DNA of 64,000 nt from an uncultured Thalassobaculaceae bacterium (GCA_964276085.1 CAXYEO010000026.1:1305-65304), one strand, 5' to 3'; shown: positions 7,728-57,803, counted from the first letter of the stretch. The notes: generated by a model from the letters alone, not told the origin. Program-made: numbers and translations.

Positions 7728-8537
7728 ATGTCGTCATCTAGGATATTTTTTTTATTAGTTACTCTAATAATAATCAACTTCAGGGTAGTCGCCGAAACGA
7801 CTATTGATAGAGATATAGCAAAGTTGTGTGCCCGGGCTATCCATCCTGTAGAAAAGTCCCTTAATTTACCAAAAAATATCTTACGCGCAATCTCTCTAAA
7901 AGAAACTGGGCGTTGGCATCATAAACTGAAAGAAAGTATGCCTTGGCCTTGGACAGTTACCTCAGGAGGAGAAGGAGTTTATTACAATAGTAAACGGGAG
8001 GCTCTAAAAGCAGTACGTGAATTACAATATAAAGGGATCACCAATATCGATGTTGGTTGTATGCAAATAAACCTGCATTATCATCCGCACGCATTTAAGA
8101 ACCTAAAAGACGCATTCAACCCACAACTAAACGCGGGGTACGCGGGAGATTTTTTAAGTCAACTGTTTGAAGATCATGGCTCTTGGCAACAGGCGATAGA
8201 GCACTACCATTCAAATAACAAGAAAAGAGGAAAAAGGTACCGCCTAGCCGTAGAAAAACTACAAAGAATAGACAGCGTATTTTTTAGAAATGATGTCAAA
8301 TCAAACGGTCAAAATATTTGGTTAGCTAAACAAAAAATATTAAAACACAATCTCTACGAGGAAAAAGAAACAAGGAAAAATAGAGTTCAAGGATCCAAGC
8401 AGCACCGGATAAAAGAGAACCAAAGGCTCCAACAAGCTTTCAGTAAAAGGAAGGAAAAAGTTTTACAAAAGTGGAAGAAAATGATGAACCAGAGGAAACA
8501 GAAACTATCGCCCCAAAAGCCAACACATCAGAGCTAA
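7728..8537 (+). CDS. Lytic transglycosylase (SLT domain) with a basic K/R/Q-rich C-terminal tail
   Basis: AAGGAG lies 5 nt upstream of ATG 7728. There is an N-terminal anchor/signal MSSSRIFFLLVTLIIINFRVVA. SLT blocks are ISLKETGRW, PWPWTV, IDVGCMQINLHYH and HYHS. The last ~80 aa are lysine/arginine/glutamine-rich. Confidence 0.75.
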   Translation: MSSSRIFFLLVTLIIINFRVVAETTIDRDIAKLCARAIHPVEKSLNLPKNILRAISLKETGRWHHKLKESMPWPWTVTSGGEGVYYNSKREALKAVRELQYKGITNIDVGCMQINLHYHPHAFKNLKDAFNPQLNAGYAGDFLSQLFEDHGSWQQAIEHYHSNNKKRGKRYRLAVEKLQRIDSVFFRNDVKSNGQNIWLAKQKILKHNLYEEKETRKNRVQGSKQHRIKENQRLQQAFSKRKEKVLQKWKKMMNQRKQKLSPQKPTHQS

Positions 8538-12071: not shown

Positions 12072-13601
12072 TTAACCGTGCACATAATGCATTAGAGAAA
12101 GCGCCACATCAGGAAAAGCCAATACTGTGACAACACCTAGCGCCTGTAAAATTACAAAAGGAATAATACCTTTATAGATAGCCTGAATTTTAATTTCTCT
12201 CGGGGCGATACCTTTCATATAGAACAATGCAAAGCCAAACGGCGGCGTGAGAAAAGATGTTTGTAAGTTAACCGCCAAAAGTATGATGAACCAAAATTTT
12301 ATATCTTCCTTAGCTATATGATCACCAAAATCCAAACCGGCAACTAATGGCGTGAATACCGGCAGAACAATCAATGTGATTTCTAGCCAGTCAAGAAAGA
12401 ACCCAAGAAAAAAGACGATAGTCATAATTAGAATAAGCATTCCCCATGCATCTAATCCCGCCTTTTCGACTATAAGGTGTTCGACAACATCATCACCACC
12501 AAGTGATCTGTACACATAGGCGAAACATGTTGCGCTTATAACGATAAAGAAAATCATTGAAACAGTTTTAGCAGACGCATGGCATACCTGAACAAGCGTC
12601 CCTCCTCCTAACCGTCCATTTGCTATTGCCAAAAGCGTAGCACCAAAAGCACCGACCGCTCCCGCCTCCGACGGAGTAGCCCAACCTAACAAAATTGATC
12701 CCTTAATTAAAGAAATCAAAAATACTGGGGGCAAAAAGCTACGTGCGATTAATGGGCCCATTTCATTTCTAGGAACGTTTAATAAGTTCGCAGGGAGTGG
12801 TGGCGCCATATCCGGTTTTATAGCTGATATAGTGGCCACAAATATTAGATAGAACGCGGCTAAGGTGAGACCTGGCACAACGGCTGCCATAAACACATTA
12901 CCAACCGAAATCGCCATTAGGTCTGCCATAATAATCAACATTATACTTGGCGGTATCAGTATACCCAGCGTACCAGACGCAGCTATAACGCCACATGAGA
13001 GCGAGTGGCTATACCCTTGCCGCATCATTGTCGGTAATGCCAGGGCCGTCATCATTGTCACAGACGCACCTATAATTCCAGTCATGGCAGCGAGGATTGT
13101 ACCCATTACGGTAACAGCAAGAGCCAGCGCTCCCGGTACACGCTTAAGAAGGACTTGAACGCAGTATAGCAAATCATTTGCTATACCGCTTCTCTCCATC
13201 ATCACGCCCATAAACACGAAAGCAGGGACAGCAACTAAAACAAGGTTCTCAGCAGCTTGCCCCCATATTCTAGGAATAAAATTGAAAAATTCAATTAAAG
13301 AAAACGAATCTAGAAAGAATCCTAGCAACCCAAAAAGCATTGCCAGACCACCCAATATAAAAGCTACGGGATATCCTGAAAACAATAAGAGTGCCAAAGT
13401 GAGAAACATCACCATCGAAATATATTCTTGGCCAACCCAAACCAACGCTTCACCGCGAGAAATCTCTTCCTCGATCATCAAGGATCCTGACAGCGTGTAG
13501 GCACCGAAGGTACACAAAACCAGGACTAACGCCAGCAAACTAAACATTAGTATCGCGACTTTTGCCTCGCCAGACCGTGTCTCTACGCTTGATTCATCCA
13601 T
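12072..13601 (-). CDS. TRAP transporter large permease (DctM family), paralogue 2
   Basis: 509-aa polytopic ORF with DctM blocks: GYPVAFILGG, LVAVPAFVFMGVMMERSGIANDL, GTLGILIPPSIMLII, TPSEAGAVGAFGA, FLTPPFGFALFYMKGIAP. Confidence 0.9.
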   Translation of the reverse strand: MDESSVETRSGEAKVAILMFSLLALVLVLCTFGAYTLSGSLMIEEEISRGEALVWVGQEYISMVMFLTLALLLFSGYPVAFILGGLAMLFGLLGFFLDSFSLIEFFNFIPRIWGQAAENLVLVAVPAFVFMGVMMERSGIANDLLYCVQVLLKRVPGALALAVTVMGTILAAMTGIIGASVTMMTALALPTMMRQGYSHSLSCGVIAASGTLGILIPPSIMLIIMADLMAISVGNVFMAAVVPGLTLAAFYLIFVATISAIKPDMAPPLPANLLNVPRNEMGPLIARSFLPPVFLISLIKGSILLGWATPSEAGAVGAFGATLLAIANGRLGGGTLVQVCHASAKTVSMIFFIVISATCFAYVYRSLGGDDVVEHLIVEKAGLDAWGMLILIMTIVFFLGFFLDWLEITLIVLPVFTPLVAGLDFGDHIAKEDIKFWFIILLAVNLQTSFLTPPFGFALFYMKGIAPREIKIQAIYKGIIPFVILQALGVVTVLAFPDVALSLMHYVHG

Positions 13602-13837: not shown

Positions 13838-15367
13838 CTAATCATATGCCGCATGCATTAACCAAAGTGCAACCTCGGGAAATGCCATAACCGTTACGAC
13901 GCCTAAAGCTTGAAGAATCACAAATGGAATTATACCCTTATAAATTGACTGTATACGTATCTCCTTGGGTGCTATCCCTTTCATGTAAAACAGTGCAAAC
14001 CCAAACGGCGGCGTTAGAAACGAAGTTTGTAAATTAACCGCTAAGAGAATTATAAACCAAAACTTTATATCAGCTTTTGCTAGGTGGTCACCAAAATCCA
14101 TCTGTATGATTAATGGCGTGAAAACAGGTAACACAATTAACGTTATTTCTAGAAAGTCTAAAAAGAAGCCAAGAAAGAATACAATTACCATTACGAGGAT
14201 TAACATCCCCCAAGGCCCTAGTCCTGCTTTTTCAATAATGAGTGTTTCTACGACGTCGTCACCGCCCAATGATCTATAAACATAAGCAAAACAAGTAGCA
14301 CTTATGACAATGAAGAAGATCATAGACACTGTTCGAGCTGCGGTATGACAAACTGATACTAAAGTATTCTTACTCAATCGACCATTGGCTGCCGCCAATA
14401 ATGTCGCACCAAAGGCGCCAACTGCTCCAGCTTCGGATGGTGTAGCAAAGCCAAAAAGGATAGAACCTTTGATTAACGTGATGAGAAAAACTGGAGGCAA
14501 AAAACTCCTTAGAACTAGTGGAAGCATTTCTCCTTTCGGAATATTCAACAAGTTTGCAGGCAAAGGTGGAGCCAGGCTGGGCTTAACAGCGGCTAATGTT
14601 GCTACATAAATTAAATAAAAGGTGGCTAATGTAAGTCCAGGAACCACCGCTGCCATAAATACATTACCAACCGAAATAGCCATTAAATCAGCCATTATGA
14701 TAAGCATAATACTAGGAGGAATAAGTATTCCCAAAGTACCTGATGCCGCAATAACCCCTGTGGCAAGAGCATGACTGTACCCCTGCCGCATCATCGTTGG
14801 CAATGCGAGCGCGGTCATCATAGTAACTGAAGCACCAATAATACCTGTCATGGCAGCTAATATTGTCCCCATAACTGTAACCGCTAGAGCAAGAGCGCCC
14901 GGCACCCTGCGCAACAAGACTTGAACGCAGTAAAGTAGGTCATTTGCAATTCCGCTGCGCTCCAGCATAACCCCCATGTAAACGAATGCAGGTACTGCAA
15001 CCAGGACAAGATTCTCTGCCGCCATCCCCCAAATTCTGGGAACAAAGTTGAAAAATTCAATCAGTGAGAACATATCCAGGTAATAACCAATTACCCCAAA
15101 TAGCATTGATAAACCACCGAGAATAAATGCAACCGGATATCCAGAAAAAAGTAACATAGCGAGCGTCAAAAACATTGCTATAGAGATGTATTCTCGGGTC
15201 ACAGAGTAGATAGCCTCCGCACGGCCAATCTCTTCCAAAGCCATTAGATGACCAGATTCATATACTACAGCAATCGCGCCAATTGTAACAATCACGCCAA
15301 CAAAAAATAATAATAGCATAGCAACTTTGTGCTCGGACGATTTATTAGCGCTAACCGGTTGGCTCAT
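13838..15367 (-). CDS. TRAP transporter large permease (DctM family), paralogue 1
   Basis: 509-aa ORF that aligns without gaps to 12072..13601. Most residues are identical after about residue 60. It carries the same DctM blocks. Confidence 0.9.
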   Translation of the reverse strand: MSQPVSANKSSEHKVAMLLLFFVGVIVTIGAIAVVYESGHLMALEEIGRAEAIYSVTREYISIAMFLTLAMLLFSGYPVAFILGGLSMLFGVIGYYLDMFSLIEFFNFVPRIWGMAAENLVLVAVPAFVYMGVMLERSGIANDLLYCVQVLLRRVPGALALAVTVMGTILAAMTGIIGASVTMMTALALPTMMRQGYSHALATGVIAASGTLGILIPPSIMLIIMADLMAISVGNVFMAAVVPGLTLATFYLIYVATLAAVKPSLAPPLPANLLNIPKGEMLPLVLRSFLPPVFLITLIKGSILFGFATPSEAGAVGAFGATLLAAANGRLSKNTLVSVCHTAARTVSMIFFIVISATCFAYVYRSLGGDDVVETLIIEKAGLGPWGMLILVMVIVFFLGFFLDFLEITLIVLPVFTPLIIQMDFGDHLAKADIKFWFIILLAVNLQTSFLTPPFGFALFYMKGIAPKEIRIQSIYKGIIPFVILQALGVVTVMAFPEVALWLMHAAYD

Positions 15368-16944: not shown

Positions 16945-18071
16945 TCAATTTTTGAATTCAAGGCGAATAGTTTCATTATTCTGTCCAATTTCTGGAACAC
17001 TGAGTATATCGACTGCTTCCCCTTTGACGGTGGATGGGGGCGCCATGACGTCTATTCTTCCCTGTGGTGTATCCACTTGTATCTTATTCAAAGCAGGGTG
17101 ATTAAGAACGTCTTCAATCGTATTTACTGCTCCAAATGCTATTTTGGCGTCTATCAATCGTCGGCGCACCTCATCACGTGTCAAACGTGATAAAATTTCT
17201 TCTATTTCACTATCTAAAAATTTTCTATTTGCCAAACGTGCAACATTATCGATTACTTTTTTGTTGTTAGCTAAACCAGGTTTTTGAAGAACCTGATCAC
17301 ATAATCTGCTCCATTCCCTTTGATTTTGTACCGCAATTAAAATTAATTCCTCATTAGCGCACTCATACGCACCGTAAGGTGCGATTGCTGGATGGTGTAA
17401 ACCGATACGTTGTTCACTCAATTCTCCATATGCCTGATGCAATAACCATGGCGACAACCATTCGACCATTCCACCGAACATGGAGGTTTTAATTGTAGAG
17501 CCTTCTCCTGTTCTGCCACGTTTTATTAACGCCTCCAACACGGCAATTTTGGAGTACATACCTGCAGCGATATCGCAAACAGAAGCCCCCACCCGCCCCA
17601 TGACCTCTGGAGACCCTGTTACAGAAATCAAGCCGCTCTCTCCCTGAACAAGAAAGTCATATGCCTTCATATCGGAATATTCACCCTCTTCACCATAACC
17701 GGAGATATCGACGGTTATTAACTTCGGATAACGAACCCGTAAATCCTCTGAACCAAAACCAGCACGCTCTGCAGCACCTGGCGCTAGATTTTGGACAAAA
17801 ACGTCTGCCTTAGCTAAAATACGCTCTAATAAGTGATGCGTCCTCAGGGTTTTTTTATATCTAGAACTAGGCTTTCCTTGCCTCTATTCAGCCAAACAAA
17901 GTACGCAGATTGGCCCATTACCTGGTGGTCGTATCCGCGCGCAAAGTCCCCGTCTGCTCTTTCAATTTTAATTACTCTCGCTCCTGCGTCTGCAAGACGA
18001 CTAGTGCAATAAGGCGCTGCCACGGCCTGCTCCAACGCGACAACTAAAATACCTTCTAGTGGCTTGCTCAT
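16945..18071 (-). pseudogene. Family III (CaiB/Frc-like) CoA-transferase split by a frameshift in an A7 tract
   Basis: ATG 18071 (AAGGA RBS) gives MSKPLEGILVVALEQAVAAPYCTSRLADAGARVIKIE...NRGKESLVLDIKKP then a stop. The -1 frame continues KKTLRTHHLLERILAKADVFVQNLAPGAAERAGFG...ISGYGEEGEYSDMKAYDFLVQGESGL...CDIAAGMYSKIAVLEAL... through to 16945. The total length plus 1 nt gives about 375 aa, normal for the family. Confidence 0.7.
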
Positions 18072-23449: not shown

Positions 23450-26400
23450 TTAGGAGAGCATATTAACGCTCAAACCTATTCCCTTGGAAGGAGATATATT
23501 TTTGATAAGACCAACTGCTAAAGCGTTATTATTAGTCGGCACAATAGAGTTACCCGTCGTAGCTAAATCTTGTATCAGCAGGTATTTTTCAATAAACTTG
23601 ATTGCGTAGTCGGTATTTTTTAACGGCTTAAGAAACTGCGTTTCTACCTCCGGTTCTCTATTCAATCTATTGTTCAGAATTGATAACTCTATGTTCAGAG
23701 CGACGCGCTTTGATTTCATTTTAGAAAACGCACTATCAACCAAAAATTTTGCGTCAGTGATGAGGTTTATTCGATCCGTGACTGATGATACCTCGACACT
23801 GGAACCTCCTCCCGAACCTGTTGCTGTTGCCGCTGTGTTAGCCGTGAAAGTGTATGCTCCATCCGATACATTAGTTATTAAAAATGTATTATTTAAATCT
23901 ACGCCATTGACGTTAGACCCGGCGATGGATCTAAACGAGACAAAGTCATCTTCCTTAAACGTATGATTAGCCTGCGTTACTGTGACCGTAGCACTGTCTT
24001 TTACGGTAGCAAAAGGCGATGATCCAAGGGTTGTGATAGATGCACCCTCTCCATTTAAAACGGCAAAATAATGGTCTGAGAATTTACCATCTAGTACTTC
24101 TTTGATGGTATCTTGCGCCTCGATCGTTACTTTTTTTCCAAGTGTATCTATTTGAACCACGATGTCGCTGGCGAAATCTGCTATAAGGTTCTTTCCATCC
24201 TTTTCAGCACTTGCAAATATCCCGTCTAATTCTGACCTCAATTTTCTTATTTCTGTATCAATTGCTCCTTGTGGATCGGCTACATTGGCGTAAAAATCAA
24301 ATTTAACTTTGTCAGTCTGAAGGTTTTTGCGGACCGTTTCCGCGTTTTTACTAAGAGTATTAGCCCCGGTTATGACATTAGCCGCGTTTCCTGAGTTAAG
24401 GGCCGAAGGTAAAAGTGAAGCAAGCCTTGTACTGTCGCTCAAACCATATGGGCCACTTGAATCTATATCTCTTAACTCTGAATTAATGGCCAGCTGCTCT
24501 GAACCATCCGGACTTGGTCTAATATTATAAGTGTCTTTTAATCTTACAGAAGATCCTCCACCAGCGCCGTTCCCTGTAGCTTGGACGGCGATAGTGCCAC
24601 CGCCTTTTGTCCCACTACTAGCAGTGCTGCCAGCGTTAAATGTAAAGTGATTGGCATTCGTAATACCTGTAATTGTGAAGGTACCATTCAAGGTCAACCC
24701 ACCTACTGCTGAACCTCCACTAAAAGTTACGGTATCATTAACATTGAAGCCATGCCCTTCAATTTCAGCACTTACAGTGGAACTACCCGCTGTCGTCGTC
24801 AATGGGTCTGTCAAAGTGTCAGCAGTTATTGTGTAATGGTTTGAGTCAGTTACAGTCACCAAAAACGTTCTTTGGTCCCCGATGCCTACTCGTAGTCCGT
24901 TTATTGGCGAGCTTGCAACATTATCAAACGTGACATACTCCCCTGTGGAAAAGCCATGACTATTGTGTTCAACGGTGACTGTAGAGCTCCCCGAGGTCGT
25001 TGTGAAAGGGTTAGAGCCAAGTTTATCCAAGTCAAGAAGATTATCTAGAGTCTCCGTCGGTGTCCCGGTGAAAGACACTGAACCTCCACCTCCACTAGCA
25101 GAGCTGGACGCGGAGCTACCAGCTGTAATCGTGTAAGTATTTGCAGAAACACTCGCAATAGTGAAGGTACTATTAACATCTAATCCTCCAACTGCTGATG
25201 CACCACTAAAGGTGATAGAGTCACCAGCTATAAATTGGTGGGCGGCGTCGGTGACAGTTACCGTCGCACTTCCATTATTTGTCGCAAATGGATTATTGGC
25301 TAATGTCCCTGTATCAGTTCCTTTGATTGTGCCTGGGGCCCCAAGTAGACTTACAATATCTGCTCTCAAATCTATATATTCAGCCTGAGTTTCACTTGTG
25401 ATAGTTTGATTAGCCAGCGTTGCTATCTTTCTCAAGTCTTCATCAACTTTTGATACTCGTAAAATTGAATCATCGATTGATGCTTGTCCTTTTGCTAGAC
25501 CAGATGTGTTGAGAGAGGCACCCCAATTTACTTTTCCCGTTTCACTTGCGAACGTGGAATTATTAACAGAGATTATACGGTTAGCATTCGAAAACTCTGT
25601 GTTAGAATCGTTTAGAAACCCTTTGGCAGTGTCAGTATCTGCCAGAGCATCACTTAAACTTGCTGATGCAACAGTTGAGGCTGCACTTGCTATTTTTGTT
25701 AAAAATGTAGCTAAATCTTTATTTGAAGCGCTAATACTACTTGCTGTGGTATCAACGATAGATGCTAGCTCATCTAGAGTGAAGCCAACGGCCCCACCTC
25801 CTCCACTTACTGAGCTAGTAGCATTGCTTTGTGCTGTGATTGTGTACGCATTCGAACTCGTAATCCCACTGACCCTGAATGTTTTATCAAGATCTAGACC
25901 CCCTACTGAGGATCCGTTGCTGTAGGCAACAACATCACCAACAGATAGTCCATGACCATTATGAGTAACAGTTACATCCGGACTACCGTTGCTTGTAGTG
26001 AATGGATTGTTGCCAAGGCTATGGCCATAACCAATAGTATTGCCACCTCCAATAGCCGCAGTGCCTTTGGAGGAAAAAGTAATTGTATATGAATTTTCAG
26101 CAATATCGGAGATTTCAAATGTACCGTTTAAATTCAAACCTCCAACTGTCGATGCATTGCTTAATGTGACATGATCACCAATCGCAAATTTATGGCCTGA
26201 ATGAGCGATTGTGACTTGATCACTGGCATTGACCGAAACAGAACTGCCGCCGCCACTCCCAACCTTTATTTGCGACCCCGCTGTAATCGTATAGGAATTA
26301 GAAGAGACACCAGCCACCTGGAAGTTGCCGTTGAGGCTCACACCATCGATCGATGCACCTCCACTGAAATTAACCGTCTCTCCATTGCTAAACGGATGCC

Positions 26401-28489
26401 CTGTGTGGGCCACCGTTACCTGATCACTGGCATTTACCGAAACAGAACTGCCGCCACCACTCCCAGCCGTAGCTTGCGACGACGCTGTTATCGTATAGGA
26501 ATTAGAAGAGACATCAGCCACCTGGAAGTCGCCATTGAGGCTCACACCATCGATCGATGCACCTCCACTGAAATTAACCGTCTCTCCATTGCTAAACGGA
26601 TGTCCTGTGTGGGCCACCGTGACCTGGTCGCTTGCATTAACCGTAACGGAACCTCCACCACCAGTAGCTGCCGCACTTCCGGGTGACCCTAACAAAAATT
26701 CATATGAATTCGTTGACTGATTCTGTACCGTGAAAGAACTATTCAAGCTCTGCCCGCCAACAGTAGATGCACCGCTGAAAATTACATTATCTCCGTCACT
26801 AAATGGATGCCCTGCGTGGTTCACCTGCACTCTATTCGTCGCGAACGTTCCAGAAGAACCACCACCATTTTCGTTGGTCGCTGGAGGAGAACCCAAATCA
26901 ACACCCACATCAATATGAATTACATTACTGTTTCGAACCGAGTGGACCGTATACGTTCCGTTTAGATCTGCGCCGAACGCATCACTAGTGCCTGAAACCG
27001 TAATCTTATCTCCCGCTTGAAGTCCATGGTCTTCAATTCTCAATTTAAGTATCGCTGTATTGTCACTGTCGCGAGCAGGAGTGGCATCAGCAAACCATTC
27101 CCAAGGATTCCCCGGAAGATCACCACCTTTAATGGTAAATGGATTAGAGCCCAGCGTTCCATCCTGAACGGTAAATGGATTAGAGCCCAGTGTCCCGCTT
27201 TGAACAGTAAATGGATTAGAACCAAGGGTTCCTGATTGCACCGTGATCGGGTTATTTCCAAGAGACCCAGACTGATATGCATAATCAAGCTTCTTCGCCT
27301 CATAAGAATTTGGCTGCCCCGCATCCACGGTGCCTCCACCCGGTTTAAATAAATTAATATTCTTTCCAGTATTTGGATCGGTAAACCTAGCAGTATGGTT
27401 AACAAGATCGGGTATTCTTGCCGCAAGCTCGGCAAAACTTGCTTTTTGAGAGTCAAAATTTGCCTGTATCTCCTCAACGCGCATGTTAGCTACAAGCTCG
27501 TCTAATTGCTTTAATATAGGTTCCAACTCATCAATAGCCGCTTTCGCAGCAAAATTAGCCCCTGCTATATTTTTAAGTTTTTTAACCGCACTCGTTTGAA
27601 TAGCGATTTCTTTGTCGTTTTCTCCACTCTCACTTGTATCCATGTGACTGGGTAAATTAAATTGCAAAGTACGAAGGTTATTTAAGCGAGTATTTATGAT
27701 TGATAAGGTAGACTCCGCATTTGTCACTTGCGATTTCGCAACCTCTACCGCTTGTATATCATTCCTTATTTTTGCTTGATTATCTATACTCAGCTCAGCC
27801 TCCCCAACATTAATGGCGGCTTTTTTCACATCGAATTTAGATTCAATTAATTGTAGTTGTCTCTCAAGCGATTGGGACGCTATCTGCGGAGGTAGTCTTA
27901 AAGCTGTAGTCGCTATCGTTCTCAACTGCATATTACCAAGAAGACCAGCAGTACTTGTTATAGAATTTATGTTTCTTAGAAAGAAAAATGCTTTAGCGAT
28001 TTCACCGTTTCCTCCACCCACATCAAGTTCGAACCTGTTCTGCAGATACTTGTCAATAAGATTTTGCTGGCTACTAGCCGTTGTTAAACTGCGTAATTCA
28101 CGTTTCTCAAAATTCACAAAATTTGCTAATTCGGCAAATCGAGGATCGTTCAATCTATTAGCAAATGAATTCAGATCGCTTGTATCACTTTTAAGGACAG
28201 CCTTGATTTTTCCCCCATTATTAATTTCTGACCCGAGGTCAAAGGCAGTCAAAAGTATTTGAAGGGATTTCCTATCTTTTACTAACTCATCGACATCCTT
28301 GAACCCAGAAACTTTATTTTTAAAGGTCTCGATATCCTTTTGAACATCTTTACGATTAAAGAAACTCTCTCGAAGCTTGCCCTCATTTTTACTAATTTGT
28401 TTAAAGAGCGCCAGTGATGATATAGTATTCTGGGCTGCCCCGCCCACATTACCACCTAAAATACCTAGTGCTGATGCACCATTAAGCAT
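23450..28489 (-). CDS. Giant (1,679 aa) DUF1217-like N-terminal domain, helical-segment and repeat-module protein of unknown function
   Basis: Uninterrupted 5,040-nt ORF with a GGAGA RBS 7 nt upstream of the ATG. Residues 25-225 have DUF1217-type blocks (SLQILLTAFDLGSEINNGGKIKAVLKSD, SFANRLNDPRFAELANF, TALRLPPQIASQSLERQLQLI). These are followed by helical N/Q-rich segments, 12-aa repeats and ten ~70-aa modules. There is no signal peptide. Confidence 0.9.
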   Translation of the reverse strand: MLNGASALGILGGNVGGAAQNTISSLALFKQISKNEGKLRESFFNRKDVQKDIETFKNKVSGFKDVDELVKDRKSLQILLTAFDLGSEINNGGKIKAVLKSDTSDLNSFANRLNDPRFAELANFVNFEKRELRSLTTASSQQNLIDKYLQNRFELDVGGGNGEIAKAFFFLRNINSITSTAGLLGNMQLRTIATTALRLPPQIASQSLERQLQLIESKFDVKKAAINVGEAELSIDNQAKIRNDIQAVEVAKSQVTNAESTLSIINTRLNNLRTLQFNLPSHMDTSESGENDKEIAIQTSAVKKLKNIAGANFAAKAAIDELEPILKQLDELVANMRVEEIQANFDSQKASFAELAARIPDLVNHTARFTDPNTGKNINLFKPGGGTVDAGQPNSYEAKKLDYAYQSGSLGNNPITVQSGTLGSNPFTVQSGTLGSNPFTVQDGTLGSNPFTIKGGDLPGNPWEWFADATPARDSDNTAILKLRIEDHGLQAGDKITVSGTSDAFGADLNGTYTVHSVRNSNVIHIDVGVDLGSPPATNENGGGSSGTFATNRVQVNHAGHPFSDGDNVIFSGASTVGGQSLNSSFTVQNQSTNSYEFLLGSPGSAAATGGGGSVTVNASDQVTVAHTGHPFSNGETVNFSGGASIDGVSLNGDFQVADVSSNSYTITASSQATAGSGGGSSVSVNASDQVTVAHTGHPFSNGETVNFSGGASIDGVSLNGNFQVAGVSSNSYTITAGSQIKVGSGGGSSVSVNASDQVTIAHSGHKFAIGDHVTLSNASTVGGLNLNGTFEISDIAENSYTITFSSKGTAAIGGGNTIGYGHSLGNNPFTTSNGSPDVTVTHNGHGLSVGDVVAYSNGSSVGGLDLDKTFRVSGITSSNAYTITAQSNATSSVSGGGGAVGFTLDELASIVDTTASSISASNKDLATFLTKIASAASTVASASLSDALADTDTAKGFLNDSNTEFSNANRIISVNNSTFASETGKVNWGASLNTSGLAKGQASIDDSILRVSKVDEDLRKIATLANQTITSETQAEYIDLRADIVSLLGAPGTIKGTDTGTLANNPFATNNGSATVTVTDAAHQFIAGDSITFSGASAVGGLDVNSTFTIASVSANTYTITAGSSASSSASGGGGSVSFTGTPTETLDNLLDLDKLGSNPFTTTSGSSTVTVEHNSHGFSTGEYVTFDNVASSPINGLRVGIGDQRTFLVTVTDSNHYTITADTLTDPLTTTAGSSTVSAEIEGHGFNVNDTVTFSGGSAVGGLTLNGTFTITGITNANHFTFNAGSTASSGTKGGGTIAVQATGNGAGGGSSVRLKDTYNIRPSPDGSEQLAINSELRDIDSSGPYGLSDSTRLASLLPSALNSGNAANVITGANTLSKNAETVRKNLQTDKVKFDFYANVADPQGAIDTEIRKLRSELDGIFASAEKDGKNLIADFASDIVVQIDTLGKKVTIEAQDTIKEVLDGKFSDHYFAVLNGEGASITTLGSSPFATVKDSATVTVTQANHTFKEDDFVSFRSIAGSNVNGVDLNNTFLITNVSDGAYTFTANTAATATGSGGGSSVEVSSVTDRINLITDAKFLVDSAFSKMKSKRVALNIELSILNNRLNREPEVETQFLKPLKNTDYAIKFIEKYLLIQDLATTGNSIVPTNNNALAVGLIKNISPSKGIGLSVNMLS
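23840..27058 (-). repeat. Array of ten ~70-aa coding modules (consensus GSNPFTT-x3-GS-x-VTV-x-H-x-GH-x-F-x2-GD-x-V-x-FSG-x-S-x-VGGL-x-LNG-x-F-x-V-x2-V-x3-SYTITA-...-GGGGS), interrupted by two helical spacers
   Basis: Modules are centred on residues 485, 558, 626, 694, 762, 843, 1082, 1176, 1245 and 1508 of the giant ORF. Each has the (H/A)-x-(G/S/A/N)-H-x-(F/L)...(G/D/N)(D/E)-x-(V/I)...LN motif. Confidence 0.8.
26240..26647 (-). repeat. Two nearly identical tandem 204-bp (68-aa) units inside the module array
   Basis: Residues 615-682 and 683-750 differ at only a handful of positions. The DNA is near-identical with a 204-bp period: GATCACTGGCATT recurs at 26218 and 26422. Similarity fades into the flanking units. 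Confidence 0.9.
27092..27271 (-). repeat. Five tandem 36-bp (12-aa) units: SGSLGNNPITVQ / SGTLGSNPFTVQ x2 / DGTLGSNPFTIK / GGDLPGNPWEWF
   Basis: Residues 407-466 of the giant ORF. The DNA shows GGTAAATGGATTAGAGCCCAG repeated in phase. Confidence 0.85.
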
Positions 28490-28536
28490 ATACTGTCTCC
28501 GCTTCTGCAGAATCCCAACGACCTGCTGCGCAGGAC

Positions 28537-28553
28537 ATGCAAATGTCGGGCCA
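28537..28553 (-). promoter_or_regulatory. Candidate sigma-54 (-24/-12) promoter of the giant gene
   Basis: Minus strand reads C-TGGCCCG-ACAT-TTGCA-T against consensus YTGGCACGR-N3-TTGCW, with GG and GC spaced exactly as in the consensus. It lies 48 nt upstream of the ATG at 28489. Confidence 0.6.
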
Positions 28554-28649: not shown

Positions 28650-30434
28650 ATGTTCACAACTAGACCGGAACTTATTGGTACTTTTGGTGTTGTCACTACT
28701 ACCCATTGGCTCGGTTCTGCCGTAGGCATGTCAATACTTGAAAAGGGAGGAAATGCTTTTGATGCGGCCGTCGCAACCGGGTTCTCCTTGCAAGTTTTCG
28801 AACCCCATTTAAATGGTCCAGGCGGCGATATGCCAGTGATTTTCCAAACTGCGGGTGCTCAAGCCCCAGAAGTCTTATGCGGTCAGGGCACGATCCCAGC
28901 AGCAGCCTCTCTTCAAAAATTTGGAGAACTCGAGTTAGACCTAATACCAGGTAGTGGTTTACTATGTGCCGTGGTACCTGGAGCGTTTGATGCGTGGATG
29001 CTTTTGTTAAGGGATCATGGAACTATGACCTTATCCGAAGTTTTAGGCCCTGCTATATCGTACGCGCGTGACGGTTATCCTGTTGTGCCCCGAATATCCG
29101 CAACCATAGACACTGTGCGTGAGTTGTTCGAAACAGAATGGAAAACATCTGCTGATATTTATCTACCCGGAGGAAAGCCACCCGCACCTGGTACAATCTT
29201 CAAAAACCCAGCGATGGCTCGTACATATGAGAAAATCGTTAGGGAATCAGAGGGAGTTAAAGGCAACCGAGAGAAGCAAATAGAACATGCGAGGAGCATC
29301 TGGTATCGTGGTTGGGTTGCAGAGGAAATAGACAAATTCTGCCGTACGCAGGAAGTTATGGACGTCTCAGGTCGACGCCATAAAGGTTTGTTAACTGGCG
29401 AGGATATGGCCTCTTGGCAAGCAACCTATGATACCCCTTTGACTTATAATTATGGGGATTACACCGTATGTAAATGCGGTCCCTGGAGCCAGGGTCCTGT
29501 TCTACTTCAACAATTAGCGATTTTAGATGGGATGGGAGTAAGCTCTATGGATCCAACTGGACCAGACTTCGTCCACGCAACCGTAGAAGCTGCAAAATTA
29601 GCGTTTGCTGATCGCGAGGCATATTATGGAGACCCCGACTTTATAGATGTTCCGATGGATAAATTATTAAGTTCCGAATACAATGCGGAACGAAGAGCTT
29701 TAATAACGCAACAGGCTTCTGACAAATTGATCCCAGGAAAAATTGATGGATATTTAGGGTCCATAGATAAAGCAATTGATGACCGATCGGGCCTGACAGT
29801 AGAAGCGTCTATGGGGGTTGGTGAACCGACGGTTGCTAAAACTGGTGTTTCGACTGGCGATACGGTTCATCTAGATATTATCGATAGATTTGGGAATATG
29901 GTTTCTTGCACTCCCAGTGGCGGATGGCTGCAAAGTTCGCCTATAATCCCAGAACTTGGTTTCTGCCTAGGCAATAGAGGACAAATGTTTTGGTTAGATG
30001 AGAATTCGCCATCCGCTTTAGTACCGGGAAAACGACCTCGAACAACGCTGTCGCCCTCGCTTGCTCTAAAGAACGGAAAACCCTACATGGTTTTTGGCAC
30101 ACCCGGTGGTGACCAACAAGATCAATGGTCGACGCTTATGTTTTTGCACCACGTAGACCATGGCATGAACCTTCAAGAGGCTATTGATTGCCCAGCATTT
30201 CATACAGACCACTTTCCAAGCTCTTTCTGGCCGCGTTCCTATCAGCCTAAAAAAGTTGTTTTAGAGGATCAGTTTTCTGAATATACGGTAACAGAACTGA
30301 GACGTCGTGGCCACGACGTAGAAGTCAGTGATCCATGGTCTGAAGGTAGATTGACAGGAGCATCACGTGATGGAGGGGTTTTAAAAGCCGCAGCAAATGC
30401 CCGAGGCATGCAGGGATACGCGGCGGGAAGGTAA
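28650..30434 (+). CDS. Gamma-glutamyltransferase family protein
   Basis: 594-aa ORF with GGNAFDAAVATGFSLQVFEPHLNGPGGD, a nucleophile region STGDTVHLDIIDRFGNMVSCTPSGG, and GTPGGDQQDQ near the C-terminus. Confidence 0.85.
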   Translation: MFTTRPELIGTFGVVTTTHWLGSAVGMSILEKGGNAFDAAVATGFSLQVFEPHLNGPGGDMPVIFQTAGAQAPEVLCGQGTIPAAASLQKFGELELDLIPGSGLLCAVVPGAFDAWMLLLRDHGTMTLSEVLGPAISYARDGYPVVPRISATIDTVRELFETEWKTSADIYLPGGKPPAPGTIFKNPAMARTYEKIVRESEGVKGNREKQIEHARSIWYRGWVAEEIDKFCRTQEVMDVSGRRHKGLLTGEDMASWQATYDTPLTYNYGDYTVCKCGPWSQGPVLLQQLAILDGMGVSSMDPTGPDFVHATVEAAKLAFADREAYYGDPDFIDVPMDKLLSSEYNAERRALITQQASDKLIPGKIDGYLGSIDKAIDDRSGLTVEASMGVGEPTVAKTGVSTGDTVHLDIIDRFGNMVSCTPSGGWLQSSPIIPELGFCLGNRGQMFWLDENSPSALVPGKRPRTTLSPSLALKNGKPYMVFGTPGGDQQDQWSTLMFLHHVDHGMNLQEAIDCPAFHTDHFPSSFWPRSYQPKKVVLEDQFSEYTVTELRRRGHDVEVSDPWSEGRLTGASRDGGVLKAAANARGMQGYAAGR

Positions 30435-30517: not shown

Positions 30518-31015
30518 ATGAAGAAAATATTAATAATATTTATTCTACCATTAGTCCTTCTTCTTGGGGCTGGGGCCGGAGCATTTTTCTTTGGTTTAAT
30601 TCCAGGCTTTGGTGCTGAAACGAATGTGGCAGCTGAGGCACAATTGTCCGAAAAGAGGGCAGCTGAAAGAAAAATTGTTCCAGAAGCTTTCAATAAAGCA
30701 TCGCTAATGTCCCTGGAATTCTGGATGGATGAATTTGTTATTAATTTACAAACACAGCGACGGAACCCAGTATTTCTTTTGTTTAGTATGGCATTGATCC
30801 TCTCTGGCGAAGAGGCAAAGGCAAAAGTAAAACTACTGGAACCACGCATAAGAGATTCGGTTAATATATTTCTCAGCAGCCTAACCCCGGAACAGTTGTC
30901 CGGCTATGATGGAATTAGAATGTTAAGACAGGAAATTTGGAATAGATCAAATGAAATAATCGAAGATTCAACCTCTTTGGAGAATATCCAAATACTAAAA
31001 TTAACTATCAAATGA
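30518..31015 (+). CDS. fliL: FliL-like flagellar basal-body-associated protein
   Basis: 165-aa ORF with a single N-terminal TM (ILIIFILPLVLLLGAGAGAFFF). FVINLQTQRRNPVFLLFSMALIL...LEPRIRDSVNIFLSSLTPEQLSGYDGIRMLRQEIWNRSNEII matches the FliL pattern (f-v-NL...PriRD...L-G-G...Lr-Ei). Confidence 0.65.
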   Translation: MKKILIIFILPLVLLLGAGAGAFFFGLIPGFGAETNVAAEAQLSEKRAAERKIVPEAFNKASLMSLEFWMDEFVINLQTQRRNPVFLLFSMALILSGEEAKAKVKLLEPRIRDSVNIFLSSLTPEQLSGYDGIRMLRQEIWNRSNEIIEDSTSLENIQILKLTIK

Positions 31016-43113: not shown

Positions 43114-44240
43114 ATGATTAAATTATCCAAGATATCAACAATTCTTATTAGCATAACTCTTTTTCCAATGTGCTTAAAAGCACAAGAAACCTATATTCCT
43201 ATCCTTGTACCTGTAACTGGCTTTCTTTCTCTAGAGGGAACAGCTCAACGAAATGGCGCGATACAAGCCCTAGACAAAGCACCTAGTAGTTTAAACATAA
43301 AGTATGAAGTTTCGGATACGTCCACATCGCCAGAGGTAGCTGTAACAGCACTACATAGAGCTCTAAGCCGAGGACAACCAGTAGCGATTGCTGCACCAAT
43401 ATTTGGAACGCAAATGCTAGCAATGTTGCCAGTGGCGAAAAGAGCCAGCGTTCCACTCATTACGGTATCAGGTACAGCCAAACTAACAGAATTGGATAAT
43501 CCTTTCATTTTTCGTTTTTTCCCTGGTGATGCAATAGTAAAGGTTGCACACGCTAGATACGTGAGTGAAATTTTAGGTCGAAGCGCCCTGCGCTTCTCTA
43601 CCAAACTACGGCGTACGGTCAGAGTGGATACTCCCATCTATCTAAGATTTTGAAAGAAAACGGCACACCGCTTGTCTATGAAGAAGCACTAGCACCATCC
43701 GTGAAGGATATGTTACCCGCATTGACTAAGCTTAGAGCCTCAAAACCTGATGTGATTTTATTACACCTACATTCTGCACCAACTGCACTGGCCATCCGTC
43801 AAGCACGCAATAACGGAATTGAATTACCGATTGTAGCTGGTTCGGCGATGCATCAACCATCTACCGCAAAACTATTAAAGACTGATCAGTTGAGAGGTGT
43901 GTGTGCTGAGACAGCAGCATCGCCAATATCAGAATCAAATAGCGAAATAATCAGTTTTACAACCGAATACAGAAACCGTTTTTCAAAAGAGCCAGATGCA
44001 TTCGCCTTAGCCCAATATGATGGCATGAATATGGTCATTGCAGCTTTAAAAAGTGGTGCTAAATCTGCGATCGATGTTCGAAACTGGCTATCTGTAAATA
44101 CATTTAAAGGCCTTGCTATGACTTATAAATCTGATGGCAAAGGAAATATGGCACACGATGCAACAATCGTTTGTTACAATGGAAAAACTCGCACTCCAAA
44201 GATCATAAAAAGATACATAAATGTGGACGGTGTATTTTAA
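43114..44240 (+). pseudogene. Liv-type (branched-chain/hydrophobic amino acid) ABC substrate-binding protein, frameshifted near 43577
   Basis: ORF 43114..43653 (signal peptide, IPILVPVTGFLSLEGTAQRNG, PVAIAAPIFGTQ) loses similarity after ...YVSEILG. The frame of ORF 43650..44240 read back to 43569 gives KRPALLYQTTAYGQSGYSHLSKILKENGTPLVYEE..., the expected continuation. The length plus 1 nt gives about 375 aa. Confidence 0.7.
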
Positions 44241-57558: not shown

Positions 57559-57803
57559 TTCACACTCGTTCAAGGTTTTGATTTTTATACCGTAATTTCC
57601 AACAAACGTAGAGCTTTTGCAATCCATCTATTCTCTACAGGTGTGATTTTGGCAACGTCACCTCAATTACTATTGTTAAATAATGAGCTACAGGATTACT
57701 AGTGGTATAATATCGTGCGTCAACGTATTCAATTGACACATTTTACACGCTTCCTAATTTAACACTGAAGTTTAATCTACTCTCTTAGAACTGAGCCTCA
57801 TTT

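What the first reader, a model, noticed from the sequence alone, without database searches (positions are those of the whole stretch)
23450..28489. Giant 1,679-aa DUF1217-headed repeat protein with flagellar-style signatures but no flagellar locus
This is one uninterrupted 5,040-nt ORF. Residues ~25-225 carry blocks I associate with DUF1217: KDRKSLQILLTAFDLGSEINNGGKIKAVLKSD, SFANRLNDPRFAELANFVNF and LRTIATTALRLPPQIASQSLERQLQLIESKFD. DUF1217 has unknown function and, as far as I recall, in Alphaproteobacteria is usually a protein of a few hundred aa encoded in or beside flagellar clusters. Here it is fused to about 180 aa of N/Q/A/L-rich helical sequence (TLSIINTRLNNLRTLQFNL, flagellin/HAP-like in flavour). 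Next come five 12-aa GxLGSNPFTVQ repeats and ten ~70-aa beta-type modules, the latter split by two ~150-170-aa helical spacers. The C-terminus is helical again (KRVALNIELSILNNRLN). There is no Sec/Tat signal peptide or lipobox, as in flagellar type III substrates. Helical ends around a huge variable middle is the design logic of flagellins and giant flagellins, yet neither end is a flagellin domain. I know of no described function for this architecture.
Basis: partly seen in the sequence, partly recalled or inferred. Interest (0 to 1): 0.85.

Follow-up and report, generated by a model that had tools for sequence, protein, structure and literature searches.

The report
Giant flagellar DUF1217–flagellin-like protein of SAR116
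The 1,679-residue protein is real and is a swollen SAR116-clade version of an unstudied ~800-residue alphaproteobacterial protein that joins a flagellum-linked DUF1217 domain to a flagellin-like helical core, so it is probably part of the flagellar filament machinery rather than an orphan oddity.

Summary
There is one intact 5,040-nt ORF (23450-28489, minus strand). It has a DUF1217 head, five 12-aa repeats, ten ~70-aa beta modules, two helical spacers and a helical tail.

New findings:
1. The protein is colinear with a widespread ~800-aa 'DUF1217 domain-containing' family (Nisaea, Thalassobaculum, Oceanibaculum; E 1e-153). It sits in the same FliL–GGT / Asp-DH locus, so it is the positional orthologue of that family.
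2. The family profile matches solved flagellins (E ~1e-8). An AlphaFold model of the Nisaea orthologue retrieves mostly flagellins and FlgL, individually non-significant. The 'spacers' are therefore a flagellin-D1-like core.
3. The beta modules are endosialidase/E1-FCCH barrels. They sit at three hairpin or loop sites of that core and number 6-10 among relatives.
4. The C-terminal tail matches the tail of short DUF1217 proteins. Those genes lie in flagellin–flaF–flbT operons. One of them, Phaeobacter CP1, is needed to build a filament although flagellin is still exported.
5. A sigma-54-type -24/-12 promoter (TGGCCC-N5-TTGCA) lies 50 nt upstream and is invariant in the five giant loci.
6. The protein has no cysteine.

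Most likely it is a late, flagellar-type-III-exported, filament-associated protein. This is inferred, not shown.

The parts
23450..28489 (-). Whole gene: 1679-aa DUF1217-headed, flagellin-like-cored, beta-module-studded protein (the last 3 nt are the stop codon)
28539..28553 (-). Sigma-54-type -24/-12 promoter element TGGCCCGACATTTGC. The GC of the -12 element lies 50 nt upstream of the ATG.
   Evidence: One of only 2 matches to TGGCNC-N5-TTGC in 64 kb; the other lies inside a DctM gene. The -24 and -12 elements are invariant and the N5 spacer varies in the 5 giant loci. TGGCC[CT]-N5-TTGC is also present at -52 and -66 in L009 and L011.
28497..28536 (-). 5' UTR with two small conserved hairpins: GUCCUGC-GCA-GCAGGUC at 28520-28536, and UUCUGC-AGAA-GCGGAG at 28497-28512, which overlaps the Shine-Dalgarno GGAG
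   Evidence: RNAalifold on 5 loci: -15.6 kcal/mol, with 2 pairs showing compensatory change. The motif CTGCAGAAGC(A/G)GAGG is kept across genera.
28430..28489 (-). aa 1-20: conserved Gly-rich N-terminal peptide (M-x-N-G-x-x-A-L-G-I-L-x-G). It is predicted disordered in the orthologue model and is absent from short DUF1217 proteins.
27815..28447 (-). aa 15-225: DUF1217 all-helical domain
   Evidence: Pfam E 7.6e-33. PDB 2o8s E 3.6e-20. The orthologue model matches 2o8s by Foldseek at 4e-8, TM 0.71.
27335..27814 (-). aa 226-385: long-helix region ending in the 'NINLF' hairpin motif; equals family profile positions ~220-370
   Evidence: domain 1, E 9e-102. Helices 236-357 in the orthologue model.
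25775..27334 (-). Insertion A, aa 386-905: linker, five 12-aa repeats (aa 408-467, nt 27089-27268) and beta modules 1-6 (aa 475-900, nt 25790-27067)
   Evidence: Absent from the ~800-aa family. Modules located. Tandem DNA repeats.
25304..25774 (-). aa 906-1062 ('spacer 1'): flagellin ND1-like helices, including LRKIATLANQTITSETQAEYIDLRADIVSLL
   Evidence: Aligns to family profile 372-~527, E 3e-21. Profile positions 416-637 align to Caulobacter FljL residues 16-252, E 8e-9. Helices have pLDDT 81-93 in the fragment model.
25070..25303 (-). aa 1063-1140: beta module 7, inserted just before the invariant DNLL motif
25010..25069 (-). aa 1141-1160: 'ETLDNLLDLD' segment. It is the counterpart of the flagellin 'F-N-G-x-x-L-L-D-G' turn, and DNLL is invariant in 51 aligned family members.
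24428..25009 (-). Insertion B (rest), aa 1161-1354: beta modules 8 and 9 plus a Gly/Ser-rich linker, at the position equivalent to the flagellin D2/D3 insertion
24077..24427 (-). aa 1355-1471 ('spacer 2'): flagellin CD1-like helices plus a third hairpin ('GKNLIADF...VVQID...VTIEAQ')
   Evidence: Family profile 559-678, E 1.8e-36. Weak Flagellin_N hit, E 0.048. Flagellin alignment.
23801..24076 (-). Insertion C, aa 1472-1563: beta module 10
   Evidence: Appears as an insert between family profile positions 678 and 679; module
23453..23800 (-). aa 1564-1679: helical C-terminal region. Its last ~55-70 aa are homologous to the C-terminal tail of short DUF1217 proteins.
   Evidence: The C-terminal profile hits the C-termini of the ~800-aa family, 8e-30 to ~1e-3. 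It also hits the extreme C-termini of 21 of 25 short DUF1217 proteins, up to 39 bits against a best shuffled score of 3.8.
30518..31015 (+). FliL-family gene (165 aa), two genes away. It is co-conserved with the locus in all related genomes examined. Functional linkage is not shown.
   Evidence: Pfam FliL E 1.8e-13. Synteny.

Best explanation
SHOWN
- The gene encodes the SAR116-clade positional orthologue of a widespread, uncharacterised ~800-aa alphaproteobacterial family.
- The architecture is nested. A short flagellar 'DUF1217 protein' (a ~200-aa helical domain plus a ~55-aa C-terminal tail) is split by a ~550-aa helical scaffold.
- The central part of that scaffold is remotely homologous to flagellin domain D1.
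- In SAR116 the scaffold has acquired, at three hairpin or loop sites, 6-10 small beta-barrel modules of the phage-endosialidase / E1-FCCH type and a variable run of 12-aa repeats.
- The gene has a conserved sigma-54-type promoter and a structured 5' UTR. The protein is cysteine-free.

INFERRED
- The gene is transcribed as a late flagellar gene (RpoN plus an FlbD-type activator, as for Caulobacter flagellins).
- The protein is exported unfolded through the flagellar type III apparatus.
- It works at the filament. The DUF1217 head and flagellin-like core would engage flagellin subunits, as an assembly factor, a cap-like element or a minor filament component.
- The beta-barrel arrays would project outward like the D2/D3 domains of large flagellins. 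They would give a strain-variable, possibly glycan-binding surface.
For: Architecture and orthology
- The ~800-aa family profile matches the giant at E 1e-153 in three colinear blocks, with three insertions.
- The same gene order (FliL, GGT, this gene, Asp dehydrogenase, TctC, DUF1611) is found in Nisaea acidiphila, Thalassobaculum, Rhodospirillaceae MAGs and an intermediate form with 2 modules.
- The C-terminal tail is shared with short DUF1217 proteins.

Flagellin-like core
- The family profile hits flagellins FljL 9cem (7.8e-9), 8uxk (8.2e-9), 3k8v (4.6e-8) and 5z7q (6e-7).
- Flagellin_N is detected in 8 of 37 members.
- The AlphaFold model of the orthologue (pLDDT 83, pTM 0.67) gives a Foldseek list dominated by flagellins and FlgL after 2o8s.
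- Source names include 'Flagellar protein' and 'flagellin-like hook-associated protein FlgL'.

Flagellar link of DUF1217
- Short DUF1217 genes lie directly after flagellin-flaF-flbT(-flaG) in Azospirillum and Salipiger, and directly before flgF-fliI in Phyllobacterium. In Brucella the DUF1217 gene is listed between motA and flgF.
- Phaeobacter CP1 (PGA1_c23640, annotated DUF1217) is essential for swimming. Its mutant still exports flagellin but has no filament, and FliD is absent in that species (PMC12363192).

Regulation
- TGGCCC-N5-TTGCA lies 50 nt upstream, with invariant elements and a variable spacer.
- Caulobacter flagellin genes are RpoN/FlbD-dependent, and their 5' UTRs are bound by FlbT (PMC3930126).
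- The Rhodospirillum rubrum flagellar cluster carries a sigma-54-dependent activator.

Export
- There are 0 Cys in 1679 aa against 1.22% in the other ORFs of the window (P ~1e-9). More than 100 relatives are virtually Cys-free. This is a known trait of flagellar axial proteins (established knowledge).
- The conserved termini are predicted disordered.

Modules
- They are endosialidase-barrel and FCCH folds.
- Copy number varies from 6 to 10.
Against: - No flagellar structural gene other than FliL lies in the 64-kb window or in the ±10 kb around the eight related loci whose gene lists were retrieved (L001-L003, L007-L011).
- I could not check that this SAR116 genome has a flagellum. The only support is 41 COG-N genes in SAR116 strain HIMB100.
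- The flagellin similarity is transitive. A profile of the giant family's own core finds no PDB hit at E<=1, and hhalign against FljL gives only 5% probability.
- Foldseek E-values for flagellins are 0.1-1.5.
- Pfam Flagellin_N and Flagellin_C are not met by the giant.
- The protein ends are not D0 helices, so polymerisation into the filament like a flagellin is doubtful.
- CP1 was not detected in the Phaeobacter exoproteome, which fits an intracellular role for the DUF1217 head.
- The sigma-54 motif is weaker in Nisaea and Thalassobaculum, and loose versions of the pattern are common in GC-rich DNA.
- Sigma-54 also drives many non-flagellar genes.
Confidence: 0.5

Rival explanations
1. It is a non-flagellar surface protein (an adhesin or lectin-like fibre). 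It uses an old flagellin-like helical scaffold only as a stalk and is exported by another route, for example type I secretion. It would serve attachment to particles or algae, or act as a phage or grazer decoy.
For: - The gene sits alone among metabolic and transporter genes.
- The modules are the barrel type used by phage tailspikes and depolymerases that bind polysaccharide.
- The only hit outside the family in the first search (P0023) combines such modules with a pectate-lyase tailspike domain.
- Copy number is strain-variable.
- Being Cys-free and lacking a signal peptide also fits type I substrates.
Against: - There are no RTX/Gly-Asp repeats and no ABC/MFP/TolC genes nearby.
- The module-free orthologues (~800 aa) keep the same conserved ends, locus and promoter, so the core function predates the modules.
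- The DUF1217 head is otherwise found in flagellar operons.
Confidence: 0.2
2. It is an intracellular regulator or chaperone of flagellin synthesis and export. The DUF1217 head would bind flagellin or FlbT/FlaF. The flagellin-like core would act as a 'regulatory flagellin' mimic, as FljJ does in Caulobacter. The protein may never become part of the flagellum.
For: - Short DUF1217 genes follow flaF-flbT in the same operon.
- CP1 was not found outside the cell, yet its loss blocks filament formation after export.
- Caulobacter uses a flagellin paralogue (FljJ) with FlbT as a translational regulator (PMC7591256).
- The 5' UTR hairpins suggest flagellin-style translational control.
Against: - Ten variable beta-barrel modules of an extracellular, carbohydrate-binding type are hard to explain inside the cell.
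- Total absence of Cys in 1679 aa suggests export.
- A regulatory flagellin such as FljJ is itself exported.
Confidence: 0.2
3. It is an artefact: a repeat-driven misassembly, a fused ORF or a decaying pseudogene.
For: - The window does contain several split genes: Peripla_BP_6 at 43114-44240, and CoA_transf_3 at 16945-17670 and 335-931.
- The gene contains tandem repeats.
Against: - The 5,040-nt frame is open.
- The repeats are only 79-89% identical.
- There are 22 full-length homologues from independent metagenomes, plus full-length tblastn matches in a MAG and a single-cell genome, with the same colinear architecture.
- Both ends and the core are conserved.
Confidence: 0.02

Closest known systems
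Short DUF1217 proteins of alphaproteobacterial flagellar clusters (PF06748; structure 2O8S AGR_C_984p; CP1/PGA1_c23640 of Phaeobacter inhibens; BMEII1108 of Brucella)
   Same: - The N-terminal domain matches (Pfam E 7.6e-33; 2o8s E 3.6e-20).
- The C-terminal tail is homologous.
- They are Cys-free.
- They are restricted to Alphaproteobacteria in everything retrieved.
   Different: - The short proteins are ~250-320 aa and lie inside flagellar operons.
- Here domain and tail are separated by ~1,340 aa of flagellin-like helices and beta modules.
- The gene is outside any flagellar cluster.
- An extra conserved 20-aa N-terminal peptide is present.
The ~800-aa 'DUF1217 domain-containing protein' family (e.g. 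Nisaea acidiphila P0198, Thalassobaculum P0189, Oceanibaculum pacificum WP_067551332; possibly Agrobacterium Atu0653, 812 aa)
   Same: - They are colinear over the whole core (E 1e-153).
- The chromosomal neighbourhood is the same.
- A GG-N10-GC element lies at a similar distance upstream, and the same motif precedes the start codon.
   Different: - The family has no beta modules. One marine intermediate, P0038, has two.
- The SAR116 proteins carry 6-10 modules plus 12-aa repeats, which doubles the size.
- No member has been studied experimentally, as far as the searchable literature shows.
Flagellins, including 'giant flagellins' with large D2/D3 outer domains
   Same: - The helical D1-like core has the I-R-x-L-A...D-N-L-L-x-G signature.
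- Variable beta-rich domains are inserted at the hairpin end.
- The protein is Cys-free and has no signal peptide.
- It has a sigma-54 promoter, as Caulobacter flagellins do.
   Different: - There are no terminal D0/D1 helices at the protein ends; the ends are DUF1217.
- Pfam Flagellin_N and Flagellin_C thresholds are not met.
- There are three insertion sites instead of one.
- The similarity is detectable only through the family profile.
Phage endosialidase beta-barrel domain / ubiquitin-E1 FCCH domain
   Same: The ten modules match these Pfam families. The fragment model matches endosialidases 4hiz, 3ju4 and 1v0e at E 1e-5 to 8e-4.
   Different: There is no sialidase propeller, no tailspike stalk and no phage genes nearby. 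Here the barrels are tandem decorations of a helical scaffold.
FliD filament cap
   Same: This is a functional analogy only. Loss of the DUF1217 protein CP1 gives exported flagellin without a filament, in a species that lacks FliD.
   Different: There was no Pfam FliD hit in the Pfam scan of the giant at E<=1, and no FliD among the top 50 Foldseek matches.

Membership tests
DUF1217 (PF06748) | Match to the Pfam model above the gathering score | tested here: met
   114.2 bits against a cutoff of 22.9, aa 82-223
DUF1217 (PF06748) | Similarity to the solved DUF1217 structure 2O8S | tested here: met
   Sequence E 3.6e-20. The orthologue model matches by Foldseek at E 4e-8, TM 0.71.
DUF1217 (PF06748) | C-terminal tail shared with short family members | tested here: met
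   21 of 25 short proteins are hit at their extreme C-terminus, up to 39 bits against 3.8 for shuffled sequences
DUF1217 (PF06748) | Gene located in or beside a flagellar gene cluster | tested here: not met
   Only FliL lies two genes away. The rest of the 64 kb is metabolic or transport.
~800-aa DUF1217-long family | Colinear match over the N-terminal region, helical core and C-terminus | tested here: met
   E 1e-153, three colinear blocks covering profile positions 9-789 of 792
~800-aa DUF1217-long family | Conserved locus (FliL, GGT, gene, Asp dehydrogenase, TctC, DUF1611) | tested here: met
Flagellin (PF00669 + PF00700) | Flagellin_N domain above threshold at the N-terminus | tested here: not met
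   No hit on the whole protein. The only signal is E 0.048 on spacer 2. The best orthologue reaches 26.4 bits against a cutoff of 26.6.
Flagellin (PF00669 + PF00700) | Flagellin_C domain at the C-terminus | tested here: not met
   No hit or 51
Flagellin (PF00669 + PF00700) | D1-type helical core with a hairpin, recognisable by profile or fold | tested here: inconclusive
   The family profile hits flagellins at E 8e-9 to 6e-7, and Foldseek returns many flagellins at E 0.1-1.5. The giant-only profile finds nothing, and hhalign gives 5% probability.
Flagellin (PF00669 + PF00700) | Polymerises into the filament | not testable with these tools
   Needs proteomics or EM
Sigma-54-dependent late flagellar genes (Caulobacter class III/IV type) | -24/-12 promoter (GG-N10-GC; TGGCCC-N5-TTGC) upstream | tested here: met
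   28539-28553, conserved in 5 loci plus L009 and L011
Sigma-54-dependent late flagellar genes (Caulobacter class III/IV type) | Dependence on RpoN and an FlbD-type activator; enhancer sites | not testable with these tools
   No rpoN or activator gene in the window. No enhancer was identified.
Flagellar type III export substrates | No cleavable signal peptide; Cys-poor; disordered termini | tested here: met
   0 Cys. The termini of the orthologue model have pLDDT below 50. These are correlates, not proof.
Flagellar type III export substrates | Secretion dependent on the flagellar export apparatus | not testable with these tools
   Needs an experiment
FliD / FlgK / FlgL | Pfam FliD_N/FliD_C or the flagellar rod-type terminal motifs | tested here: not met
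   No such Pfam hits. Salmonella hook-filament junction complex chains (9go6) appear only as weak Foldseek matches.
RTX / type I secreted giant adhesins | Gly-Asp nonapeptide repeats and a neighbouring ABC/MFP exporter | tested here: not met
   No such Pfam hits or neighbouring genes
Phage tailspike / endosialidase | Beta-barrel accessory domain | tested here: met
   End_beta_barrel 3.7e-10. Foldseek 4hiz 1.4e-5.
Phage tailspike / endosialidase | Catalytic propeller or stalk, and a phage context | tested here: not met
   No other phage domains. PHROGs gives only two unknown-function hits. The chromosomal synteny is conserved.

The most novel reading that the evidence does not exclude
The DUF1217 head, with its flagellin-like extension, would be the missing filament-assembly or cap factor of alphaproteobacterial flagella that lack FliD. 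This corresponds to the 'unknown factor X' in the Caulobacter model (PMC7591256). In SAR116 it would have grown into a giant tip or collar structure studded with glycan-binding barrels, making the flagellum an adhesion or sensing organelle in one of the ocean's most abundant bacteria.
Probability: 0.15. Interest if true: 0.85.

Novelty: new variant of a known kind. Interest (0 to 1): 0.6.

Why it matters
DUF1217 is a conserved, alphaproteobacteria-specific flagellar gene. Its only functional data so far are a 2025 transposon phenotype: flagellin is exported but no filament forms, in a species without FliD.

This locus shows three things. The domain is naturally fused to a flagellin-like core in a large unnoticed ~800-aa family. 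The fusion carries a late-flagellar-type promoter. In SAR116 it has become a modular giant. Together these give a concrete hypothesis, that DUF1217 works directly on flagellin or the filament, and name tractable genes to delete (Nisaea, Thalassobaculum, possibly Agrobacterium Atu0653).

The locus is also a clear example of nested domain insertion producing a strain-variable surface protein in a globally abundant marine clade.

Tried and rejected
- A word-indexed homologue search with the N-terminal 234 aa found only fragments of the same family. The exhaustive HMM search was needed.
- Single-sequence searches of the C-terminus and spacers against PDB and Pfam gave nothing significant.
- A profile of the giant family's own core against the PDB gave no hit at E<=1. 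hhalign against FljL gave 5% probability. I therefore state the flagellin link only as transitive.
- I tested whether the three helix/hairpin units are internal repeats. No signal was found (hhalign probabilities 1-6%), and the idea was dropped.
- The AlphaFold model of giant residues 880-1679 was only moderate (pLDDT 61.5). I used it for secondary structure and module fold only.
- A loose sigma-54 pattern is too common in GC-rich loci to be evidence in Nisaea or Thalassobaculum. The claim rests on the AT-rich SAR116 loci, L009 and L011.
- The two SAR116 genomics papers and the HIMB100 genome paper that I text-searched do not mention flagella.
A whole-genome check for fli/flg/rpoN genes was therefore not possible.
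- No phage, RTX or FliD/FlgK membership was found.
- NCBIfam gave no meaningful hit.
Full report
**1. The observation.** Window 23450-28489 (minus strand) is one open frame of 1679 codons starting with ATG.
- Pfam finds DUF1217 at residues 82-223 (E 7.6e-33). It also finds six stretches of E1_FCCH (E 5.8e-28) and five of End_beta_barrel (3.7e-10).
- The only solved relative of the head is 2O8S, Agrobacterium AGR_C_984p (E 3.6e-20, residues 15-223).
- An HMM built from the modules finds exactly ten copies.
- The five 12-residue repeats (aa 408-467) are copies of the first strand of the modules. The same 'LGSNPFTT' motif leads modules 6, 7, 8 and 10.
- The DNA repeats are 204 nt x 2.2 copies at 89% identity and 36 nt x 3.1 copies at 79%. 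They are too diverged to cause a collapse or expansion artefact.
- Twenty-two full-length homologues of 1342-1679 aa exist in independent marine metagenomes, and a MAG and a single-cell genome carry full-length matches.
- Their lengths follow module number (6-10) and repeat number.

**2. Organism and neighbourhood.** The closest genome records are a 'Rhodospirillaceae' MAG (91% identity) and SAR116 single-cell genomes (72-75%).
- Every ORF of at least 150 aa that returned a Pfam hit is a metabolic or transport gene, with one exception: a FliL-family gene at 30518-31015, two genes from the giant.
- No rpoN, activator or other flagellar gene lies in the window.
- The order FliL, gamma-glutamyltranspeptidase, giant gene, aspartate dehydrogenase, TctC, DUF1611, MR_MLE is the same in the related marine contigs.

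**3. It belongs to a large family.** An exhaustive profile search with residues 1-404 gave 1033 hits.
- Besides short (~250-320 aa) and multi-repeat DUF1217 proteins, there are dozens of ~780-830-aa proteins. These match the profile over positions 1-~380 in one stretch at their N-terminus.
- A profile of the giant's last 115 residues hits the extreme C-termini of the same proteins (8e-30 down to ~1e-3). The module HMM hits only one of them, P0038, which has two modules.
- A profile of 37 such proteins matches the giant at E 1e-153 in three colinear blocks: giant 21-385, 906-~1062 and 1355-1672.
- This leaves three insertions. A is aa 386-905 (repeats and modules 1-6). B is aa ~1063-1354 (module 7, then the invariant DNLL motif, then modules 8-9). 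C is aa 1472-1563 (module 10).
- Named members are 'DUF1217 domain-containing protein' of Nisaea, Thalassobaculum and Oceanibaculum. Some sources call them 'Flagellar protein' or 'flagellin-like hook-associated protein FlgL'.
- In Nisaea acidiphila, Thalassobaculum, two MAG or metagenome contigs and the two-module intermediate, the gene lies in the same FliL–GGT / Asp-DH–TctC–DUF1611 neighbourhood.
- The giant is therefore the positional orthologue of the ~800-aa protein, enlarged by module insertion.

**4. A flagellin-like core.** The family consensus contains 'I-R-x-L-A-x-x-S...A-D-R...D-N-L-L-x-G', which is the flagellin ND1 signature.
- The family profile hits solved flagellins: Caulobacter FljL 9cem (7.8e-9), 8uxk (8.2e-9), Sphingomonas 3k8v (4.6e-8) and Bacillus 5z7q (6e-7). 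Profile positions 416-637 align to residues 16-252 of a 273-aa flagellin.
- Eight of 37 members give Flagellin_N hits.
- An AlphaFold model of the Nisaea orthologue (47-sequence alignment, pLDDT 83, pTM 0.67) shows three parts. There is a DUF1217 helical domain. There are long helices with three beta-hairpin clusters at residues 368-412, 549-583 and 679-692. The termini are disordered.
- Foldseek returns 2O8S first (4e-8). After that the list is almost entirely flagellins and FlgL, but with individually weak E-values of 0.1-1.5.
- Mapped onto the giant, 'spacer 1' is ND1-like, 'ETLDNLLDLD' (aa 1146-1155) is the hairpin turn, and 'spacer 2' is CD1-like.
- Insertions A and B sit in the first two hairpin clusters, and insertion C in the loop that follows the third. 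Modules 8-9 occupy the place where flagellins carry D2/D3.
- Caveat: a profile of the giant family's own core does not reach flagellins. The link is transitive through the orthologue family.
- A test for internal repetition of the three units was negative.

**5. The ends are one DUF1217 protein.** The last 70 residues of the long family, as a profile, hit the extreme C-termini of 21 of 25 short DUF1217 proteins. Scores reach 39 bits, against 3.8 for the best of 250 shuffled controls.
- The architecture is thus nested. A DUF1217 domain comes first, then a flagellin-like scaffold carrying beta modules, then the DUF1217 tail.
- The long family adds a conserved Gly-rich 20-residue N-terminal peptide that short proteins lack.
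- In comparison with distant relatives, the head (68% identity) and tail (59%) are the best conserved parts. The helices (45-46%) and modules 8-10 (40-48%) are the least conserved.

**6. What DUF1217 is linked to.**
- In Azospirillum oryzae and Salipiger, a 263-273-aa DUF1217 gene directly follows flagellin-flaF-flbT(-flaG).
- In Phyllobacterium the DUF1217 gene directly precedes flgF-fliI-flgBC and is divergent from motA. In Brucella it is listed between motA and flgF.
- In Agrobacterium the gene at that position, atu0559, belongs to the flg-fli polycistron. I did not verify that Atu0559 is a DUF1217 protein.
- In Phaeobacter inhibens the 'conserved protein CP1' (PGA1_c23640) is annotated DUF1217 in the authors' supplementary tables.
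- Transposon mutants in CP1 are non-motile. The mutant exoproteome still contains flagellin and hook proteins, but no filament is seen by EM. CP1 itself was not found outside the cell, and FliD is absent from the species (PMC12363192).
- The same paper lists an 812-aa Agrobacterium homologue of CP1, Atu0653. It may be a long-family member, but I did not verify this.
- A Caulobacter model explicitly leaves filament 'assembly by an unknown factor (X)' open (PMC7591256).

**7. Regulation.**
- Fifty nucleotides upstream of the ATG lies CTGGCCCGACATTTGCAT (28539-28553). The pattern TGGCNC-N5-TTGC occurs only twice in the 64 kb, and the other site is inside a DctM gene.
- In five giant loci, spanning proteins 46-91% identical to this one, the -24 and -12 elements are invariant while the 5-nt spacer varies.
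- TGGCCT-N5-TTGCT and TGGCCC-N5-TTGCG occur at -52 and -66 in the two-module intermediate and in a Rhodospirillaceae MAG.
- Nisaea (TGGTCC-N5-CTGCA) and the Thalassobaculum-type loci (TGGCCG-N5-CGGCC) keep only GG-N10-GC. That is weak evidence in GC-rich DNA.
- TGGCCC-N5-TTGC is, from my recollection of the Caulobacter literature, the form of sigma-54 promoter found at class III/IV flagellar genes.
- The review PMC3930126 confirms that Caulobacter flagellin genes are RpoN/FlbD-dependent and that FlbT binds their 5' UTRs.
- The 5' UTR here folds into two small conserved hairpins, and the second covers the Shine-Dalgarno sequence.
- The motif CTGCAGAAGC(A/G)GAGG before the start codon is kept from SAR116 to Nisaea.

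**8. Export.**
- The protein has no cysteine in 1679 residues. The other 46 ORFs of the window average 1.22% Cys, giving P ~1e-9 for zero by chance.
- Among 118 family members checked (22 giant homologues, 59 ~830-aa orthologues and the 37 alignment members), only three have a single Cys.
- Absence of Cys, lack of a signal peptide and disordered conserved termini are typical of proteins that pass unfolded through the flagellar channel (established knowledge). They also fit type I substrates.
- No RTX motifs or exporter genes are present.

**9. Modules.**
- The fragment model (aa 880-1679, pLDDT 61.5) reproduces helices and beta modules. It matches phage endosialidases (E 1.4e-5 to 7.7e-4), E1 FCCH domains and Klebsiella phage depolymerases.
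- In endosialidases this barrel carries a sialic-acid binding site (my recollection, not tested here).
- A glycan-binding role for the modules is an inference.

**10. Verdict.**
- Shown: the ORF is real, with a nested architecture, orthology to an ~800-aa DUF1217–flagellin-like family, a conserved sigma-54-type promoter, a Cys-free composition and module-number variation.
- Inferred, at about even odds: it is a late flagellar, type-III-exported, filament-associated protein. Its head and core would act on flagellin (assembly, cap-like or minor filament component), and its barrels would form a variable outer surface.
- Rivals: a non-flagellar adhesin (0.2), an intracellular flagellin regulator or chaperone (0.2) and an artefact (0.02).
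- It is a new architectural variant of a known but barely studied kind.
- The family-level finding, DUF1217 fused to a flagellin-like core, is the part most worth following up.

Noticed in passing
window 43114-44240 (+): A periplasmic binding protein gene (Peripla_BP_6) is split into two overlapping ORFs: 43114-43653 (profile positions 3-128) and 43650-44240 (positions 160-336). This is a frameshift, a pseudogene or a sequencing error.
   Followed up: partly
window 16945-17670 (-) and 335-931 (-): Two CoA-transferase family III genes are truncated. The ORF at 16945-17670 covers only profile positions 132-366 (241 aa, against 373-385 aa in the syntenic loci L001 and L003). The ORF at 335-931 covers only positions 1-171.
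   Followed up: partly
window 28490-28512 (-); L007, L009 and L011 upstream regions: The motif CTGCAGAAGC(A/G)GAGG just before the start codon is conserved from SAR116 to Nisaea and MAGs. It goes beyond a plain Shine-Dalgarno sequence and may be a binding site for a translational regulator (FlbT-like?).
   Followed up: partly
window 30518-31015 (+) with 28650-30434 (+): The FliL-family gene lies 84 nt downstream of, and co-directional with, a gamma-glutamyltranspeptidase gene. I saw no sigma-54 motif of its own. The FliL–GGT pairing is conserved in all related loci from SAR116 to Nisaea and Thalassobaculum.
   Followed up: partly
proteins P0041, P0066, P0142 and P0157; L014 7593-9776: DUF1217 also occurs as 5-9 tandem copies in proteins of 600-1400 aa. 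An example is a 727-aa protein on a Rhizobium plasmid, away from flagellar genes. This is another unexplored architecture of the domain.
   Followed up: no
L009 7749-10790: The two-module intermediate P0038 starts at family-profile position 77. A 61-aa ORF just upstream (7749-7934) is probably its true N-terminus, so that contig likely has a frameshift or a miscalled start.
   Followed up: no
window 12072-13601 and 13838-15367 (-); 2032-2880 (+) and 56710-57627 (-): There are two tandem DctM TRAP-transporter genes and two TauD-family dioxygenases in one window. This is typical of SAR116-like organic-acid and taurine scavenging.
   Followed up: no
window 14560-14574 (-): This is the second match to the sigma-54 pattern (TGGCTCCACCTTTGC). 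It lies inside a DctM coding sequence and is most likely chance.
   Followed up: no
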